A program made the translations under genes and the position numbers. Under the pieces are notes generated by a model. It had not been told where the DNA came from. It was given only the letters and a program-made list of their open reading frames with translations, and did no database searches. A DNA stretch of 64,000 nucleotides from Dehalococcoidia bacterium (GTDB lineage: Bacteria > Chloroflexota > Dehalococcoidia > Plut-88900). Location of the stretch: positions 1,984,001 to 2,048,000 of the forward strand of contig OZ240215.1 in NCBI GenBank assembly GCA_965197585.1, written 5' to 3'. Positions 588-34,928 of the stretch are shown piece by piece (positions within the stretch are counted from its first letter, which is position 1; the number at the start of each line of letters is the position of its first letter).

Positions 588-1386
588 GTGACACGAACCC
601 ATTGACTGAATCAGGACATCTGTACTATTATCCCCCTCGACTAGCTCGTCACTCACCCTAAACACCAAGGAGGAACCAAAAACCCAGGGGGAAGCCCAGC
701 CCTGGCCCCCGAGGACTCAACGCCCCAGCCCATCCCAACGGCCCTGCACACGGGACCCGCGGCACAAGCGAACGGCGCCATCTCCTCATCCCACCGGGTC
801 CCGTGTCCCCTTCCCTACCCAGGCGATAGAAGGTCCATCGACTCAATACGGGCAGCCCCTCTCTCATCGAGACCCTGCCCTTTCGCGCCCTACCTGATGG
901 GCGCACTGTTTAACCGGCATTGACTTCGCCGGTAACAGGTACGGCCCCACTTTGTCGGGCCTGGGGCCTCAGGGCCCTTGCGGGACTCCACCGTCGTAGT
1001 CATATACGATGGAAGCGGGTTCGCGCTCCCTCTTCACAGAGAGGTCGAGCGCTACGGGACTCCACCGTCGTAGTCATATACGACGGAAGCGGGTTCGCTC
1101 TTCCTCCTCATAAAGAGGTCGAGCGCCACTGGTAGACGGGTATGCGCCCCACGCCGAGACTCTCTCGGTCCGCCCCGGAACCAACTTGAAAACCTGTGGG
1201 GTTGCGCAGGCTGGCCTCCCGCCCCCTGTGCCCGAGTCCCGGACCTTCCATCGCCGACCCCCTCCCACCAGACAAACCGAAAACCCGAAACACGACAATC
1301 GAAGATGGAACATCCGCCTCAGGAGGATCCGCCTCAGGAGGACTGAAGAAAACCCCGGTGTGTCACTAACCTACCGAACGAGTACA
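588..1386 (+). ncRNA. Repeated non-coding structured element, copy A (candidate large ncRNA or non-autonomous mobile element)
   Basis: 5' ~250 nt and 3' ~110 nt are homologous to the reverse complement of 31474-32231; promoter-like boxes at 602-631; helices 748-759/795-806 and 822-836/1241-1255; no conserved ORF. Confidence 0.6.
981..1126 (+). repeat. 74-bp imperfect tandem duplication inside element copy A
   Basis: CGGGACTCCACCGTCGTAGTCATATACGAYGGAAGCGGGTTCGC...GAGGTCGAGCGC starts at 981 and 1055. Confidence 0.9.
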
Positions 1387-1696
1387 ACCCCTTGCCCTTC
1401 TCCCCTTCACTCCGCCTACAATCTCCCGTGAGCTTACGACTCCAATTACGCCCTTTCCTTCCATCCCATGGTTTGGGGGTGCGCAAAAATCTTTCCCGAA
1501 TCAATCAAACAGGCACGGATTCAATCTGAAACAATCAAACTTCGCAGGTTATGACAACAAGCATGCTCCATTCATCGTCCTCTCGGCATCCCAACCTCCT
1601 GAGCAATTGCCGGATATTGACTATACCAACCCATGTTCTTAACATAGCCAGTTAGAGAAGACGTGCGACACATTTGATGTGATTTAGGAGGAGCCG

Positions 1697-24434: not shown

Positions 24435-24511
<77 letters not shown>

Positions 24512-29971: not shown

Positions 29972-31393
29972 CTAGTTCGCGTGCGCCATCTGCACCGGCG
30001 CAGGGCCGATCTTGTTGTAGCAATCCAGGGCGGCGACTTTGTAGCACTCGGCGAGGGTGGGGTAGTTGAAGACGGTGTTGACGAAGTAGTCGAGGGTGCC
30101 GCCGAAGGCCAGGACGGCCTGGCCTATGTGAATGAGCTCTGCGGCCTCGGCGCCGATGATGTGGATGCCCAGCAACTCCCGGGTGTCCCTGTGAAACAGC
30201 ATTTTGAGCATCCCCGTGTCGTCGCCGAGAATGTTGCCCCGCGCTATCTCCCGGTACCTGGCCAGGCCCACCTCGTAAGGGACACCGGCCTCGGTCAAAG
30301 CCTGCTCCGTGCCACCGACCATGGACAGTTCGGGCACGGAGTAGATGCCGAAGGGGTAGTGGTGGGGGGAGGAGTGGTACTCGATCCCGAAGGCGTGGCA
30401 GGCCGCGGCCCGGCCCTGCTCCATGGAGGTCGAGGCCAGGGAGGGGAATCCCACCACGTCGCCTACCGCGTAGATGTGGGATTGTGCAGTCTGGTAGTGA
30501 TCGCCGACGGGTATGCGGCCTCGGTTGTCGGAGGTCAGGCCGGCGGAGTCGAGATTCAGCACACCTGTTGCGCCCATCCGCCCAACTGAATACATGAGCA
30601 GGTCGGATGTGATTCTCTTTCCCGACTTTAGCGAGGCGACGGCCTTGCCGCCGATGGACTCCACGAGCTCCACTTCCTCGCCGAACCGGAAGATGCAGCC
30701 CATGTTGCGCATGTGGTAGACGAGGGCCTCGGTCAATTCCCTGTCTACGAAATCAAGGATGCCGGAACGTTTCTCCACAACGGTGACTTCCGAGCCGAGG
30801 GCGGCGAAGATCGAGGCGTACTCGATTCCGATTACCCCGGCCCCGACCACGGTCATCGTGCGCGGAATGGTGTCCAAGCTGAGGACTCCGTCGGAGTCGA
30901 CGATCGCCCGGCTGTCAACGTCGAACCCCGGCAGGGACGCGGGCGTCGTGCCGGTGGCTATCACGATCTTGTCGGCCTCGACTCGGACCGTGCCTTTTCG
31001 CCCGGTGACCGCCAGGACGTTGGGAGATTCGAAGGCGGCCTCGCCCTGCAGAACATCGACGCGATTGCGCCTCATCTGGTGGCGGATCACCTCGGTTTCC
31101 TGGACGATCACGTGGTTGCAGCGGAAGAGGAGGTCGTCCGCCATGGATATGTCTTCTTTGACCGTGAAGGAAGAGCCGTAGATGCCCCGCTGTCGGAAGC
31201 CGGTCAGGTATAGCACGGCCTCGCGAAAGGTCTTGGAGGGGATGGTACCGGTGTTGATGCATACACCGCCGACGACTTCTCTACGCTCGCAGATCCCGAT
31301 CTTTTTGCCCAGCTTGGCAGCCTGGATTGCGGCGCGTTGCCCGGCAGGCCCGGTACCGATCACGAACATGTCGTAGCGTCCGTTTTCGGCCAT
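29972..31393 (-). CDS. sthA: Soluble pyridine nucleotide transhydrogenase
   Basis: GGVCINTGTIPSKT (single Cys), FPSLASTSMEQGR, ELIHIGQAV, FNYPTLAECYKVAAL. Confidence 0.93.
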   Translation of the reverse strand: MAENGRYDMFVIGTGPAGQRAAIQAAKLGKKIGICERREVVGGVCINTGTIPSKTFREAVLYLTGFRQRGIYGSSFTVKEDISMADDLLFRCNHVIVQETEVIRHQMRRNRVDVLQGEAAFESPNVLAVTGRKGTVRVEADKIVIATGTTPASLPGFDVDSRAIVDSDGVLSLDTIPRTMTVVGAGVIGIEYASIFAALGSEVTVVEKRSGILDFVDRELTEALVYHMRNMGCIFRFGEEVELVESIGGKAVASLKSGKRITSDLLMYSVGRMGATGVLNLDSAGLTSDNRGRIPVGDHYQTAQSHIYAVGDVVGFPSLASTSMEQGRAAACHAFGIEYHSSPHHYPFGIYSVPELSMVGGTEQALTEAGVPYEVGLARYREIARGNILGDDTGMLKMLFHRDTRELLGIHIIGAEAAELIHIGQAVLAFGGTLDYFVNTVFNYPTLAECYKVAALDCYNKIGPAPVQMAHAN

Positions 31394-31473
31394 GTTGCTC
31401 CAGAAAGCACGTGGGGGAATTGCCTATAACGCTCTGGCAGTGTAGTTGCCGCCCGCGCATCATGTCAATTGAG

Positions 31474-32231
31474 TGTATTCGTTCGATAGATTAGTGACAC
31501 ACCGGCCTTTTCTTCAGTCCTCCAGAGGCGGATGTTCCATCTTCGATTGTGGGGTTTCGGTTTCCGTTCTGTCTGTTAGGTTTTGAGAAGGCGATGAAAG
31601 ACGCTTGCCGGATTAGGCTCCCTACATTTAGATAATGCGGGCTAAGAGGCGTCCCGGGAGCGTGGGACGGGACTCCGCCGCCGCCTAGACCTGGAAGTAT
31701 GGTCGGACGTACGGGTCCGTCATCCGTCATAGGCTCCAATGAGGTTTGGCTGCGCTGTCCGCCGTAGGCGGATGCAGTAAGGGGAAAGTCCAGGGTCAGT
31801 TCCCCTCGCAGGAGTACGGGATATCCAGTTAGCCGCCTGTATCCAGGAGCCGGGAGTGGCGGACAGTCCAGTTTATTTGAGGAAGCGGACGGAGAGCCGA
31901 GCGGTCCTCGGCTACGGGCTGCCCCGTTCCGCTCCATGGGTCGGGTTGCTCCGTGAGGAGACTTTTAAGTACGGTCCAGGGCGTCTTCCATCGCCTAGTG
32001 GTCAGGGAAGGGGGAAGGGTACACGGGACCCGGTGGGAAGAGGAGATGGCGACTTTTGCTTGTGCCGCGGGCCTGCGCGAGGGCCGTTGGGATGGGCCAG
32101 GACGTTGAGTCCTCGGGTGGGGCCGGGTGGGCTTCCTTAGTTTTTGGTACCTCCTTAAGGTGGTTGGGTGGTGTTCGAACGGTGAGGATAGTAGCACGAG
32201 TGTTCAGGTAGTGTCAATGGGTTCGTGTCAC
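31474..32231 (-). ncRNA. Repeated non-coding structured element, copy B
   Basis: Reverse complement matches 588-1386 at both ends; long-range helix 31981-31996/31589-31604; promoter TTGACA-18-TACTAT. Confidence 0.6.
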
Positions 32232-32348
32232 ACTTGGGTGGACACCGCCCCAGCCCCACAGGGGAACCCTCACCCCCTTGATCCCCCTCTCACGCCACAG
32301 GCGCATCTTCGACCCTTAGGGCCTTCAAGGGAGAGGGGGAGATAAGAA

Positions 32349-32389
32349 TAGAGGCCCACGTGCGTGCTTTGCACGCACGTGGGCCTCTA
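32349..32389. terminator. Perfect long hairpin, probable terminator of the lipoprotein gene
   Basis: TAGAGGCCCACGTGCGTGC-ttt-GCACGCACGTGGGCCTCTA. Confidence 0.6.
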
Positions 32390-32464
32390 ATTCAGTACTG
32401 GGGGGAGGGGGATGGATTCCCGATAGGGGTCAGGGATGACGGAGGGGGTGGGGGTGTTTATTGA

Positions 32465-34851: not shown

Positions 34852-34928
34852 TGGTGGGCGATACTGGACTCGAACCAGTGACCTCTGCGATGTCAACGCA
34901 GCGCTCTAACCAACTGAGCTAACCGCCC
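34852..34928 (-). tRNA. tRNA-Val(GAC)
   Basis: Reverse complement GGGCGGTTAGCTCAGTTGGTTAGAGCGCTGCGTTGACATCGCAG...GGTTCGAGTCC...CCCACCA. Confidence 0.97.

What the first reader, a model, noticed from the sequence alone, without database searches (positions are those of the whole stretch)
588..1386. Twin ~0.8-kb non-coding elements: conserved scaffold with dissimilar, hairpin-packed interiors (candidate new large RNA or mobile element family)
Seen: 588-1386 (+) and 31474-32231 (-) share a ~250-nt 5' block (GTGACACGAACCCATTGAC; AAGGAGGWACCAAAAAC; CCCGAGGACTCAACG; GCCCATCCCAACGGCCCT; CCCGCGGCACAAGC; CGCCATCTCCTCWTCCCACCGGGTCCCGTGT) and a ~110-nt 3' block (ACAATCGAAGATGGAACATCCGCCTC...GGAGGACTGAAGAAAA...CCGGTGTGTCACTAAYCTAYCGAACGARTACA). 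The interiors (837-1240 versus 31605-31980) show no similarity I can see, yet both are strings of hairpins. Indels break any shared reading frame. I do not recognise it as RNase P RNA, tmRNA, 6S, SRP or a group I/II intron. Inference: a multi-copy structured RNA or non-autonomous element with variable cargo, possibly mobilised in trans.
Basis: partly seen in the sequence, partly recalled or inferred. Interest (0 to 1): 0.88.

Follow-up and report, generated by a model that had tools for sequence, protein, structure and literature searches.

The report
Terminase-derived, promoter-carrying non-coding repeat elements
The two look-alike 0.8-kb stretches belong to a family of about 57 non-coding repeats per genome that carry a strong promoter, a decayed piece of a phage DNA-packaging gene and, in part, the ends of an insertion sequence, so they are mainly a mobile repeat and not yet a proven new RNA class.

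Summary
Copy A (588-1386, +) and copy B (31474-32231, -) share the 5' and 3' blocks and have unrelated interiors. They are 2 of 57 copies ("F1") in this 3.43-Mb genome of a Dehalococcoidia MAG. All 8 other species of the genus hold 23-70 copies each; none was found in 3 sister genera.

- **Promoter.** Each copy starts with a consensus promoter (TTGAC, 16-19 nt, TAnnnT).
- **Stem.** A 15-22-bp long-range stem closes the 316-544-nt interior in 57 of 57 copies, and it shows compensatory changes.
- **IS ends.** The 3' end of A and B is the right inverted repeat of an IS481-like insertion sequence. Of 14 copies with both repeats, 11 have 5-bp target duplications. The right end lies 5 bp upstream of a TTG(AC) -35 box in 16 of 25 cases.
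- **Origin.** The promoter, the stem arms and several interior classes, including A's, derive from a terminase-large-subunit operon. A 12-copy sister family matches that operon at E 3.5e-83.
- **Coding.** F1 is non-coding: substitutions fall 33/36/30 by phase, against 3/2/51 in a flanking gene.

Verdict: a non-autonomous, mosaic, probably transcribed repeat family, a new variant of MITE-like elements. A function for its RNA is unproven.

The parts
588..631 (+). Copy A: promoter module P1. GTGACAC 588-594 (the same 7-mer as the inner end of the IS481-like left repeat), -35 TTGACT 602-607, -10 TACTAT/TATTAT 623-631.
   Evidence: Read. The module recurs at 76 places. -35 is TTGAC in 67 of 69 F1+F2 copies, while there are 60 distinct spacers with 63% mean identity.
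667..821 (+). Copy A: conserved 5' domain. It begins with the SD-like AAGGAGG (667-673), which has no start codon after it, and holds the invariant motifs CCCGAGGACTCAACG, GCCCATCCCAA, GGCACAAGC and CGCCATCTCCTC.
   Evidence: Alignment of 57 copies. Single-sequence folds place the G-run/CTTCCC helix in 51 of 57 copies and GAGGA/TCTCC in 25 of 57. Covariance model R1 scores 139-219 bits on the 57 copies.
822..836 (+). Copy A: 5' arm of the long-range stem (GGCGATAGAAGGTCC).
   Evidence: Pairs with 1241-1255. 57 of 57 copies have both arms.
837..1240 (+). Copy A: interior, a decayed fragment of the terminase-large-subunit gene. It holds two tandem ~74-nt units, about 981-1054 and 1055-1128.
   Evidence: BLASTN to the terminase operon: 369-410, 419-443, 459-484 and 493-580 of the element match operon 1564-1717 at 75-93%. 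The colinear alignment is visible. The interior is unique in this genome and 87-91% identical in other species.
1241..1255 (+). Copy A: 3' arm of the long-range stem (GGACCTTCCATCGCC).
1256..1352 (+). Copy A: C/A-rich, G-poor tail (1256 to about 1300), two small hairpin modules ATCCGCC-TCA-GGAGGAT/C (1312-1328 and 1327-1343), and the end motif CTGAAGAAAA (1343-1352).
   Evidence: Tail alignment of all copies. The hairpin module is present 0-3 times per copy and at 9 solo sites.
1360..1386 (+). Copy A: right inverted repeat of an IS481-like insertion sequence (GTGTCACTAACCTACCGAACGAGTACA).
   Evidence: The same 27-mer ends a 336-aa IS481-family transposase gene in a sister genus. Pattern hit at genome position 1985360.
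1392..1422 (+). Flank of copy A: TTGCCC 5 bp after the repeat end and TACAAT 19 nt further, a promoter-like site of the downstream amidohydrolase-type gene (ATG at 1697).
   Evidence: 16 of 25 right ends are followed by N5+TTG.
32188..32231 (-). Copy B: promoter module P1. GTGACAC 32231-32225, -35 TTGACA 32217-32212, -10 TACTAT 32193-32188.
31996..32156 (-). Copy B: conserved 5' domain starting with AAGGAGG (32156-32150). It is preceded by the leader palindrome GTTCGAAC (32180-32173).
31981..31995 (-). Copy B: 5' arm of the long-range stem (GGCGATGGAAGACGC).
31605..31980 (-). Copy B: interior of class 3 (10 members). No detectable similarity to copy A's interior or to the terminase gene.
31590..31604 (-). 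Copy B: 3' arm of the long-range stem (GCGTCTTTCATCGCC).
31508..31589 (-). Copy B: C/A-rich tail, one hairpin module (ATCCGCC-TCT-GGAGGAC, 31533-31517), and CTGAAGAAAA (31517-31508).
31474..31500 (-). Copy B: right inverted repeat of the IS481-like IS (GTGTCACTAATCTATCGAACGAATACA).
   Evidence: Pattern hit at genome position 2015500.
31439..31468 (-). Flank of copy B: TTGACA 5 bp after the repeat end, an 18-nt spacer and TACACT, the promoter-like site of the downstream flavoprotein-type gene (ATG at 31393).

Best explanation
A and B are members of a mosaic, non-coding repeat family (F1: 57 copies, about 1.2% of this genome, genus-wide). The family arose from an internally deleted copy of a phage-type packaging operon. 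It kept the operon's consensus promoter P1 and 5' leader, a decayed stretch of the terminase-large-subunit (TerL-like) nuclease-domain coding region bounded by an inverted repeat, and the region around the gene's stop codon. This cassette came to lie between the inverted repeats of an IS481-like insertion sequence and was spread as a non-autonomous (MITE- or cassette-like) transposon by a transposase supplied in trans. Insertion makes a 5-bp duplication. The right end lands 5 bp upstream of a TTGAC -35 box, so P1 reads through the element towards the neighbouring gene, whose own promoter stays intact. Copies then exchanged parts by recombination. Many, including A and B, now lack the outer left repeat.

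Shown: copy number and distribution; the repeats and duplications; descent from the terminase operon for the 12-copy sister family F2 and for several F1 interior classes including A's; the non-coding state; the closing stem with compensatory changes.

Inferred: that P1 fires and gives a ~0.65-0.75-kb structured RNA; that the stem is kept at the RNA level; the order of events; and that the elements are mainly selfish, with at most a side effect on neighbouring genes.
For: - **Family size.** 57 full 5' blocks out of 76 HMM hits. The covariance model finds 58 hits in G000 and 23-70 in each of the 8 other genomes of the genus.
- **IS ends.** The 27-nt 3' module ends a 336-aa transposase gene in sister genus G010. 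Its best NCBIfam match is IS481 (E 2.2e-62, 211 bits, cutoff 224), with Pfam rve, rve_3 and HTH_32. By pattern (<=5 mismatches of 27), 15 F1 copies have the left repeat: 13 abutting, 2 at 232 and 1337 nt upstream. 24 F1 copies have the right repeat.
- **Target duplications.** The 5-bp flanks match at >=4 of 5 in 11 of 14 two-ended copies (7 perfect), against 1.6% of cross-pairings.
- **Target site.** TTG stands at +6 to +8 after the right end in 16 of 25 cases (genome frequency 0.013). 12 of these have TAnnnT 16-19 nt further on.
- **Terminase origin.** Interior sequences occur outside F1/F2 as long matches only inside two TerL-like genes. Those genes sit behind P1 promoters. The F2 HMM matches operon positions 1326-1832 at E 3.5e-83 and 1.6e-76. 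F1_14 aligns colinearly over 414 nt at 66%. F2 frames hit TerL at the protein level at E about 1e-31 to 4e-33. TerL identity rests on PHROG terminase hits (E 7e-6), on two listed relatives (about 59-60% identical) passing Pfam Terminase_6C, and on a portal and a major capsid gene nearby.
- **Non-coding.** In the orthologous copy A (G000 vs G005), substitutions by phase are 33/36/30 with indels of 3, 4, 1, 1, 2, 1. The flanking genes give 3/2/51 and 167/46/25.
- **Stem.** 57 of 57 copies have both arms. On 18 of the 57 F1 copies plus the 2 TerL genes, 15 pairs are 91.7% paired, against 31-50% when slid. 4 pairs (17 cells) are changed on both sides, and 0 of 500 shuffles reach the covariation score.
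- **Mosaicism.** Each of 3 leader types combines with 5-8 interior classes.
Against: - Only about a quarter of the copies have both repeats. A and B have only the right one, and no duplication could be found for them. How the repeat-less majority spread is not explained.
- No intact partner transposase was found in the genus. At E<=1e-8 there are 0 matches in 7 of 9 genomes, a 169-aa fragment in G005 and a copy in G007 whose match is split between two frames.
- B's interior class and four others show no detectable similarity to the terminase gene. The F1 5' domain matches it only weakly (E 0.007-0.03).
- The promoter hexamers are kept across diverged leaders, and the stem is kept by compensatory changes. 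Both point to selection on transcription or RNA, which a purely selfish DNA element does not need.
- Transcription itself is not shown. Contigs from four RNA libraries cover only the conserved core (681-816), summed over paralogues, and DNA carry-over is not excluded.
- Gene orientation counts rest on my crude ORF calls.
Confidence: 0.65

Rival explanations
1. F1 (with F2) is a family of functional, trans-acting large structured RNAs. They would be fired together with the phage-like head and packaging genes from the shared P1 promoter, for instance as a sponge or scaffold for a protein or for ribosomes. Their mobility would be secondary.
For: The -35 is TTGAC in 67 of 69 copies although spacers differ (60 distinct, 63% identity). 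The closing stem is present in 57 of 57 copies with compensatory changes, and is better paired than in the parent gene. Several motifs are invariant in 57 copies. The same promoter heads the terminase and capsid operons. The core is present in contigs of 4 of 4 RNA libraries laid.
Against: No Rfam relative was found. The family is confined to one genus among those searched. Outside the stem, RNAalifold found 0 of 20 pairs with double changes. Interiors are unrelated between classes. The body is a decaying gene fragment. The invariant motifs may reflect recent spread. The RNA evidence comes from contigs only.
Confidence: 0.13
2. The elements act in cis as mobile regulatory modules. P1 adds read-through transcription, or a long structured leader, to the gene downstream, and selection keeps copies that sit in front of genes.
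For: The downstream gene is co-oriented in 44 of 57 cases, mostly 50-100 nt away. The upstream gene is divergent in 36 of 57. The right end abuts a -35 box. Two copies stand before tRNA genes. No terminator-like T-run is seen at the element end.
Against: The downstream genes keep complete promoters of their own (12 of 25 right ends are followed by -35 plus -10). They are functionally unrelated: of 57 proteins only one group of 8 and one pair are homologous. The C-rich, G-poor tail looks like a Rho loading site (inference), which would end transcription. The orientation bias also follows from oriented insertion next to TTGAC. Gene calls are crude.
Confidence: 0.1
3. The copies are dispersed cis sites for the phage-like, possibly gene-transfer-agent-like, packaging machine. 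The terminase-gene fragment with its inverted repeat would serve as a packaging-initiation or decoy site spread around the chromosome.
For: The part kept in every copy is the inverted repeat and its surroundings from the terminase gene itself. A TerL-like gene is found in 51 of 81 sampled genomes of the class, and here it lies by portal and capsid genes. About 70 copies are spread over the chromosome.
Against: Nothing shows that particles are made or where packaging starts. From recall, in known pac phages the site usually lies in the small-subunit gene. The arms are absent from the TerL genes of 8 other genera. Compensatory changes in arms 320-540 bp apart fit RNA pairing better than a DNA site.
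Confidence: 0.05
4. The elements encode proteins: small or unusual ones in F1, and a truncated nuclease-domain protein in F2.
For: F2 has an SD, an ATG and an open frame of 220-425 codons in phase with TerL. Minority-base counts by codon phase in its first 90 nt are 37/35/60.
Against: F1 has no start codon after AAGGAGG, indels of 1-4 nt between copies, and flat substitution phases of 33/36/30. The F2 frames give no Pfam hit (2 of 12 tested). They run on into REP-type repeats and are rich in R/P/S/L.
Confidence: 0.03
5. The arms are recombination sites of an invertible DNA switch (inverton) that flips the interior.
For: Inverted repeats of 15-22 bp flank 316-544 bp, a typical inverton geometry (recalled), in 57 of 57 copies.
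Against: 0 of 559 interior-to-interior BLAST alignments among the 57 copies are in reverse orientation. No promoter is evident inside the interior. The same arms lie inside an intact coding gene.
Confidence: 0.02

Closest known systems
MITEs and mobile insertion cassettes (non-autonomous IS derivatives with or without passenger DNA)
   Same: They have terminal inverted repeats like those of a full-length IS, a short target duplication, no transposase and many copies. Copies lie mostly in intergenic DNA.
   Different: At 0.6-0.9 kb they are large for a MITE. The passenger is a promoter plus a decayed phage-gene fragment, not IS-internal sequence or an intact gene. Only about a quarter of the copies keep both ends. 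No close partner transposase is found in this genome. Comparison with named examples is from recall. My searches listed no paper on such an element, and I saw listings and abstract starts only.
IS481-family insertion sequences
   Same: The parent transposase is best matched by the IS481 model. The ends are TG...CA, the repeats are ~27-30 bp and imperfect, and the duplication is short.
   Different: The score is just under NCBI's cutoff (211 vs 224 bits). The target here is N5 followed by TTG(AC), in one orientation, not the palindromic site I recall for IS481 itself.
Promoter-bearing intergenic repeats such as Correia elements of Neisseria or ERIC/BIME repeats (recalled)
   Same: They are dispersed, transcribed or transcribable, hairpin-rich intergenic repeats that can alter expression of neighbours.
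   Different: Those are 30-160 bp. These are five to ten times longer, carry a full consensus promoter reading inward, and derive from a phage gene.
Phage terminase large subunit genes and gene-transfer-agent packaging modules
   Same: The scaffold and several interiors are homologous to the nuclease-domain part of a TerL-like gene and share its promoter.
   Different: The copies are fragments without a frame, about 35 times more numerous than the 2 intact genes, and spread over the chromosome.
Large bacterial non-coding RNAs in Rfam (OLE, GOLLD, ROOL, HEARO, group II introns)
   Same: Similar size, hairpin-rich, with a long closing helix.
   Different: No model matches even at E<=10. The elements are multi-copy, limited to one genus among those searched, and gene-derived.

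Membership tests
Non-autonomous IS derivative (MITE / mobile insertion cassette) | Terminal inverted repeats matching those of an autonomous IS | tested here: met
   Left and right repeats match the ends of the full-length IS in G010. 15 F1 copies have the left repeat and 24 the right one by pattern. A and B have the right repeat only.
Non-autonomous IS derivative (MITE / mobile insertion cassette) | Direct target-site duplication | tested here: met
   11 of 14 two-ended copies have >=4 of 5 matching flank bases (7 perfect), against 1.6% of cross-pairings. None was found for A or B.
Non-autonomous IS derivative (MITE / mobile insertion cassette) | No transposase inside; partner transposase available in trans | tested here: inconclusive
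   There is no ORF of that kind inside. The partner is absent from G000 at E<=1e-8 and is fragmentary or split between frames in G005 and G007. It is intact in sister genus G010.
Non-autonomous IS derivative (MITE / mobile insertion cassette) | Insertion polymorphism between related genomes | tested here: inconclusive
   Copy A is orthologous in G005. The same interior stands at non-orthologous loci in G001 and G008. No empty site was recovered.
IS481 family (parent IS) | DDE transposase matching the family model above its cutoff | tested here: inconclusive
   NCBIfam IS481 gives E 2.2e-62 and 211.2 bits against a cutoff of 224. The next best is IS3 at 101 bits. Pfam rve, rve_3 and HTH_32 pass.
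Structured non-coding RNA family | Match to a curated RNA family | tested here: not met
   Rfam 15 gives no hit at gathering score and only chance-level hits at E<=10.
Structured non-coding RNA family | Conserved secondary structure with covariation | tested here: inconclusive
   The closing stem is 91.7% paired, with 4 of 15 pairs changed on both sides and 0 of 500 shuffles as high. In the 5' domain, RNAalifold found 0 of 20 pairs with double changes, while my manual helices recur in single folds (51 of 57 and 25 of 57). All sequences are close kin.
Structured non-coding RNA family | A transcript of defined ends | not testable with these tools
   Only assembled contigs of RNA libraries were available. 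They cover the core at 681-816.
Terminase large subunit (pseudo)gene | Colinear sequence homology to an intact gene | tested here: met
   F2 HMM vs operon 1326-1832 gives E 3.5e-83. F1_14 aligns over 414 nt at 66%, and A matches in four pieces. This is not met for B's class.
Terminase large subunit (pseudo)gene | Open reading frame under purifying selection | tested here: not met
   F1 shows flat substitution phases of 33/36/30 and frame-breaking indels.
Inverton (invertible promoter switch) | Both orientations of the segment between the inverted repeats | tested here: not met
   0 of 559 interior alignments are reversed. Population reads were not examined.

The most novel reading that the evidence does not exclude
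The ~70 copies (F1+F2) are not junk. They would be a domesticated regulon tied to a gene-transfer-agent-like head and packaging cluster that is widespread in Dehalococcoidia. When the shared late-type promoter P1 fires, each copy would give a stem-closed RNA, or expose a terminase-gene-derived DNA site, that controls or seeds packaging of host DNA. On this reading a phage packaging gene fragment has been multiplied and placed in front of promoters all over a symbiont's chromosome for a host function.
Probability: 0.1. Interest if true: 0.85.

Novelty: new variant of a known kind. Interest (0 to 1): 0.45.

Why it matters
- It gives a worked example of how a 'mystery' conserved-scaffold element can be built from three ordinary parts: IS ends, a phage late-type promoter and a decaying gene fragment. 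It also shows that such composites can reach over 1% of a small symbiont genome.
- An IS481-like element and its derivatives sit with one fixed end 5 bp upstream of -35 boxes. If confirmed, this is a promoter-proximal target choice that leaves genes intact and could be useful as a tool.
- A 15-22-bp stem inherited from a coding gene has been improved by compensatory changes in non-coding descendants. That is a clean case for testing selection on RNA structure in a repeat family.
- The link to a terminase operon and to a head-gene cluster found in most sampled Dehalococcoidia makes the question of gene-transfer-agent-like particles in this class testable.

Tried and rejected
- **Rfam.** A gathering-score scan of the window and E<=10 scans of both regions found no family.
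- **Viral contigs.** An exact scan for the core motif gave 0 hits.
- **Consensus fold.** RNAalifold on the MAFFT alignment of 57 5' domains gave a weak consensus (-12.4 kcal/mol, 0 of 20 pairs with double changes), because variable hairpins are misaligned. I replaced it with a manual model checked by single-sequence folds. That model was derived from these same sequences.
- **Reach of the model.** Covariance model R1 does not detect the 12 F2 copies at E<=0.01. A blank in other genera (0 in G009, 80% complete, and in G010 and G011) therefore does not exclude distant relatives.
- **Unrelated IS.** The abundant 1056-bp IS next to several copies looked like the parent but is unrelated. Its inverted repeats differ and its target is a REP-type hairpin.
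- **Stem in the parent gene.** I tested whether the stem is a conserved feature of TerL genes. The arms are absent in 8 of 8 other genera aligned.
- **Inverton.** Rejected: 0 of 559 reversed alignments.
- **Coding.** Rejected for F1. Left open, but unlikely, for F2.
- **Theme among neighbours.** Of 57 downstream proteins, one family has 8 members and one has 2; the rest are singletons.
- **RNA runs.** 22 runs were listed, and every row labelled RNA (15 on record) has a small share of words, <=0.12. Laying 4 of them (X1, X5, X8, X10, contigs only) shows cover of neighbouring genes and of the conserved core only. Parts without cover prove nothing, and no habitat claim is made from these small shares.
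- **Solved structures.** PDB sequence search with the TerL-like protein: 0 hits at E<=1. Pfam on it: 0 hits.
- **Literature.** Searches listed nothing on such elements. I saw only listings and the starts of abstracts and read no paper. Supplements were not consulted.
- Structure prediction, complex prediction and the protein atlas were not used. The Python cap (40 scripts) was reached, so no R-scape-like test over all genus copies and no search for empty sites could be run.
- **Report hand-in.** I resent it with that field added.
Full report
**1. The observation**

Their interiors give no BLASTN hit to each other. Both fold better than shuffled sequence, with z of -3.39 and -1.90 on 20 shuffles each. 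Rfam finds only two tRNAs in the window and nothing credible in either region, even at E<=10.

**2. A large family**

- BLASTN of copy A against its own genome gives 72 matches.
- An HMM of the 5' block gives 76 hits. 57 are full-length (139-247 bits). 19 share only the first 50-110 nt.
- An HMM of the 3' block gives 58 hits.
- I call the 57 copies F1. They measure 0.6-0.9 kb and make up about 1.2% of the genome.
- BLASTN finds the family in all 8 other species of the genus. In 52 genomes of other genera it finds only 25-28-nt matches to the last part of the element, in 2 genomes.
- A covariance model of the 5' domain (R1) finds 58 hits in G000 and 23-70 in each other genome of the genus. It finds none in the 3 genomes of other genera of the family.
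- R1 also misses the related F2 copies, so its reach is short.
All are in records titled 'MAG: Dehalococcoidia bacterium'.
- A scan of viral contigs found none.

**3. Anatomy**

From 5' to 3' each copy has six parts.

- **(a) Promoter module P1.** It reads GTGACAC-N7-TTGAC, then 16-19 nt, then TAnnnT. The -35 is TTGAC in 67 of 69 F1+F2 copies. There are 60 distinct spacers with 63% mean identity.
- **(b) Leader.** It comes in three types, each with a short palindrome, and ends in AAGGAGG with no start codon behind it.
- **(c) Conserved 5' domain of ~150 nt.** It holds invariant motifs. My manual model, derived from these same sequences, has nested helices and a junction. The outer helix appears in single-sequence folds of 51 of 57 copies and the GAGGA/UCUCC helix in 25 of 57. 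RNAalifold on the MAFFT alignment gave only a weak consensus with no double changes.
- **(d) Inverted repeat of 15-22 bp.** It is present in 57 of 57 copies with duplex energies of -28 to -40 kcal/mol, and it closes an interior of 316-544 nt. I tested 18 of the 57 F1 copies, chosen by hand to span the arm types, plus the 2 parent genes. The 15 outer pairs are 91.7% paired against 31-50% in slid controls. Four pairs (17 cells) change on both sides, and no shuffle of 500 reaches the covariation score. The tool warns that related sequences can beat shuffles without any structure.
- **(e) C/A-rich, G-poor tail of ~45 nt.** It carries 0-3 small hairpin modules (ATCCGCC-NNN-GGAGGAT) and the end motif CTGAAKAA.
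- **(f) A 27-nt module in about half the copies.** It reads GTGTCACTAAYCTAYCGAACGAGTACA.

The interiors fall into 10 classes of sizes 12, 12, 10, 7, 6, 6, 1, 1, 1, 1. Each of the three leader types combines with 5-8 interior classes, which indicates recombination among copies.

**4. The ends belong to an insertion sequence**

- The short match in sister genus G010 lies at the 3' end of a transposase gene.
- A full copy there encodes 336 aa. Its best NCBIfam match is IS481 (E 2.2e-62, 211 bits against a cutoff of 224), with Pfam rve, rve_3 and HTH_32.
- Its left end, TGATCTCGTTCAGAAAGATGAGTGACAC, matches a sequence that precedes part of the F1 copies. Its right end is module (f).
- In G000 a pattern search (<=5 mismatches of 27) finds 16 left repeats: 13 abut an F1 copy, 2 lie 232 and 1337 nt upstream of one, and 1 is solo. 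It finds 25 right repeats: 24 at F1 ends and 1 at a truncated copy.
- Hand curation of weaker matches gave 17 left and 27 right repeats (used).
- For 14 copies with both repeats, the 5 bases outside the two ends match at >=4 of 5 in 11 cases (7 perfect), against 1.6% of cross-pairings.
- The right end is followed by N5 and then TTG in 16 of 25 cases, where the genome frequency of TTG is 0.013. 15 are TTGAC-like, and 12 have TAnnnT 16-19 nt further on. Two of these promoters belong to tRNA genes.
- The full-length IS in G010 shows the same arrangement.
- No close transposase is found in G000 (0 matches at E<=1e-8). G005 has a 169-aa fragment, and G007 has a copy whose match is split between two frames.
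- Copies A and B have the right repeat but not the outer left repeat, and I found no duplication for them.

**5. The body comes from a terminase operon**

- Interior sequences occur almost only inside F1/F2. The only long matches elsewhere lie at two loci.
- Those loci lie in two ~462-aa genes that stand third in operons headed by P1 promoters. The operons are at genome positions 1119956 and 2874405 on the minus strand, and the large gene follows ORFs of 132-134 and 72-73 aa.
- The protein has weak PHROG hits to terminase large subunits (E 7e-6, 0.002, 0.009) and no Pfam hit itself.
- It has over 3500 relatives. Two relatives listed at about 59-60% identity pass Pfam Terminase_6C.
- Near one copy lie an SPP1-type portal gene and an HK97-type major capsid gene. 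A further P1 promoter stands before the capsid operon.
- Twelve of the 19 partial promoter hits head a sister family, F2. Its HMM matches the operon colinearly at positions 1326-1832 with E 3.5e-83 and 1.6e-76.
- The long open frames of F2 are in phase with the terminase nuclease domain, with protein-level hits at E 3.8e-33 to 1.5e-31.
- F1 interiors of several classes also match. F1_14 aligns over 414 nt at 66%, F1_32 and F1_43 match in long pieces, and copy A matches in four pieces. Colinearity is visible.
- B's class and four others show nothing.
- The two stem arms are the codons for (N/D)DGRFL and G(P/S)SIVKP of the gene. In the intact genes they already pair, at -29.1 and -30.5 kcal/mol. 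They are absent from the TerL genes of 8 other genera.
- The F1 end motif resembles the gene's stop-codon region. This is a resemblance seen by eye only.
- The F1 5' domain matches the gene only weakly (E 0.007-0.03).

**6. Non-coding now**

Copy A has an ortholog in G005 with conserved flanking genes. Substitutions in the flanking genes pile up in one codon phase (3/2/51 and 167/46/25). In the element they are flat (33/36/30), with indels of 3, 4, 1, 1, 2 and 1 nt.

**7. Context**

These counts use my crude ORF calls.

- The next gene downstream is co-oriented in 44 of 57 cases, mostly 50-100 nt away.
- The upstream gene is divergent in 36 of 57.
- The downstream proteins are unrelated, apart from one family of 8 and one pair.
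- One F1 copy lies at a synteny break between species.

**8. Expression**

Of 22 runs listed, every row labelled RNA held at most 0.12 of the sampled words. In the four RNA libraries laid, from four studies and as contigs only, the flanking genes and the conserved core (681-816) are covered. Loose ends there read like other F1 copies. This is compatible with transcription but is not proof. Depth sums over paralogues, and DNA carry-over cannot be excluded.

**9. Reading**

The best account is a composite, non-autonomous transposable element. It combines IS481-type ends, a late-type phage promoter and a decaying terminase-gene fragment. It was multiplied in trans and placed next to -35 boxes, and later scrambled by recombination, with many copies, including A and B, now one-ended or end-less.

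Two features are not explained by selfish DNA alone: the preserved promoter hexamers, and the compensatory upkeep of a stem 320-540 nt across. They keep alive three other readings, in that order of likelihood:

- a functional RNA,
- a cis-regulatory role,
- a role in packaging.

Invertons are rejected (0 of 559 reversed alignments). Coding is rejected for F1.

**10. Novelty**

Searches of the paper library listed nothing on such elements. I saw listings and abstract starts only, and supplements were closed. I rate the finding a new variant of a known kind (MITE- or cassette-like elements) and of moderate interest.

Noticed in passing
G000 genome, e.g. C1:1222982-1224037; 21 copies (nearest to the window: 1861370-1862425): A 1056-bp IS is present in 21 copies at 89-100% identity, with inverted repeats TGTAAGTGTTAGGTAATTCGTTGACAG. 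Almost every copy sits inside the REP-type hairpin GTCATTCC...GGAATC, with ATTCC/GGAAT repeated on both sides. This suggests a hairpin-targeting IS.
   Followed up: partly
G000 C1: 62860+, 505610-, 684518-, 1445638+, 1577663+, 1590859+, 1673469+, 2280200+, 3022084+, 3035253-, 3062928-, 3386770- (loci L099-L110): Sister family F2 has 12 copies. Each has the P1 promoter, an SD and ATG, and a 220-425-codon open frame in phase with the terminase nuclease domain. The 75-95-nt internal units vary in copy number. Two of the 12 frames were scanned against Pfam, with no hit. The family is possibly still coding.
   Followed up: partly
G000 C1:2863000-2874500 and 1117800-1120000 (loci L133-L135): A phage-type head and packaging cluster holds a small ORF, a 73-aa membrane-like ORF, a TerL-like gene, an SPP1-type portal and an HK97-type capsid, with P1-type promoters before two operons. 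The TerL-like gene is found in 51 of 81 sampled genomes of the class, usually once. This could be a prophage remnant or a gene-transfer-agent-like system.
   Followed up: partly
Right ends of 25 IS481-like repeats in G000; in the window 1387-1397 and 31463-31473: The IS481-like element and its derivatives end 5 bp upstream of TTG(AC) in 16 of 25 cases. In 12 of these a -10-like hexamer lies 16-19 nt further on. Two of these promoters belong to tRNA genes. This suggests oriented insertion just upstream of promoters.
   Followed up: partly
window 1312-1343 and 31517-31533; 9 solo sites in G000 (e.g. 1217262, 2672277): A small hairpin module ATCCGCC-NNN-GGAGGAT, with a conserved G/A mismatch, is inserted 0-3 times in F1 tails and sometimes in the 5' domain. 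It is flanked by similar heptamers (TCGAAGA...CTGAAGA). It looks like a tiny mobile hairpin of its own.
   Followed up: no
window 32345-32393 (- strand upstream of copy B) and 470-539 (upstream of copy A): Two long perfect hairpins lie upstream of the copies. Upstream of B, AGAGGCCCACGTGCGTGC...GCACGCACGTGGGCCTCT is followed by a T-rich run and looks like a terminator. The same module precedes other F1 copies. Upstream of A lies GATATATGGGCCATG...CATGGCCCATATATC. Both give chance microRNA hits in Rfam.
   Followed up: no
L003 (G000 C1:1188813-1192057) against the other 8 genomes of the genus: The two genes flanking this F1 copy are adjacent in 4 genomes. In 5 genomes they lie 9-11 kb apart and inverted. 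In G002 the orthologous copy keeps both end blocks at 93% identity while its interior does not align. F1 copies may therefore mark rearrangement points and swap interiors.
   Followed up: no
window 24435-24508 (+) and 34855-34928 (-): Two tRNA genes are the only Rfam matches at gathering score in the window.
   Followed up: no
G000 C1:3315507-3316216: A truncated or rearranged F1 copy has its 5' domain cut after ~115 nt. An array of ~35-nt GC-rich tandem repeats (CCGGGTTCCCGGGTAGGTCTACCGGCCCC) replaces the rest before a normal 3' block.
   Followed up: no
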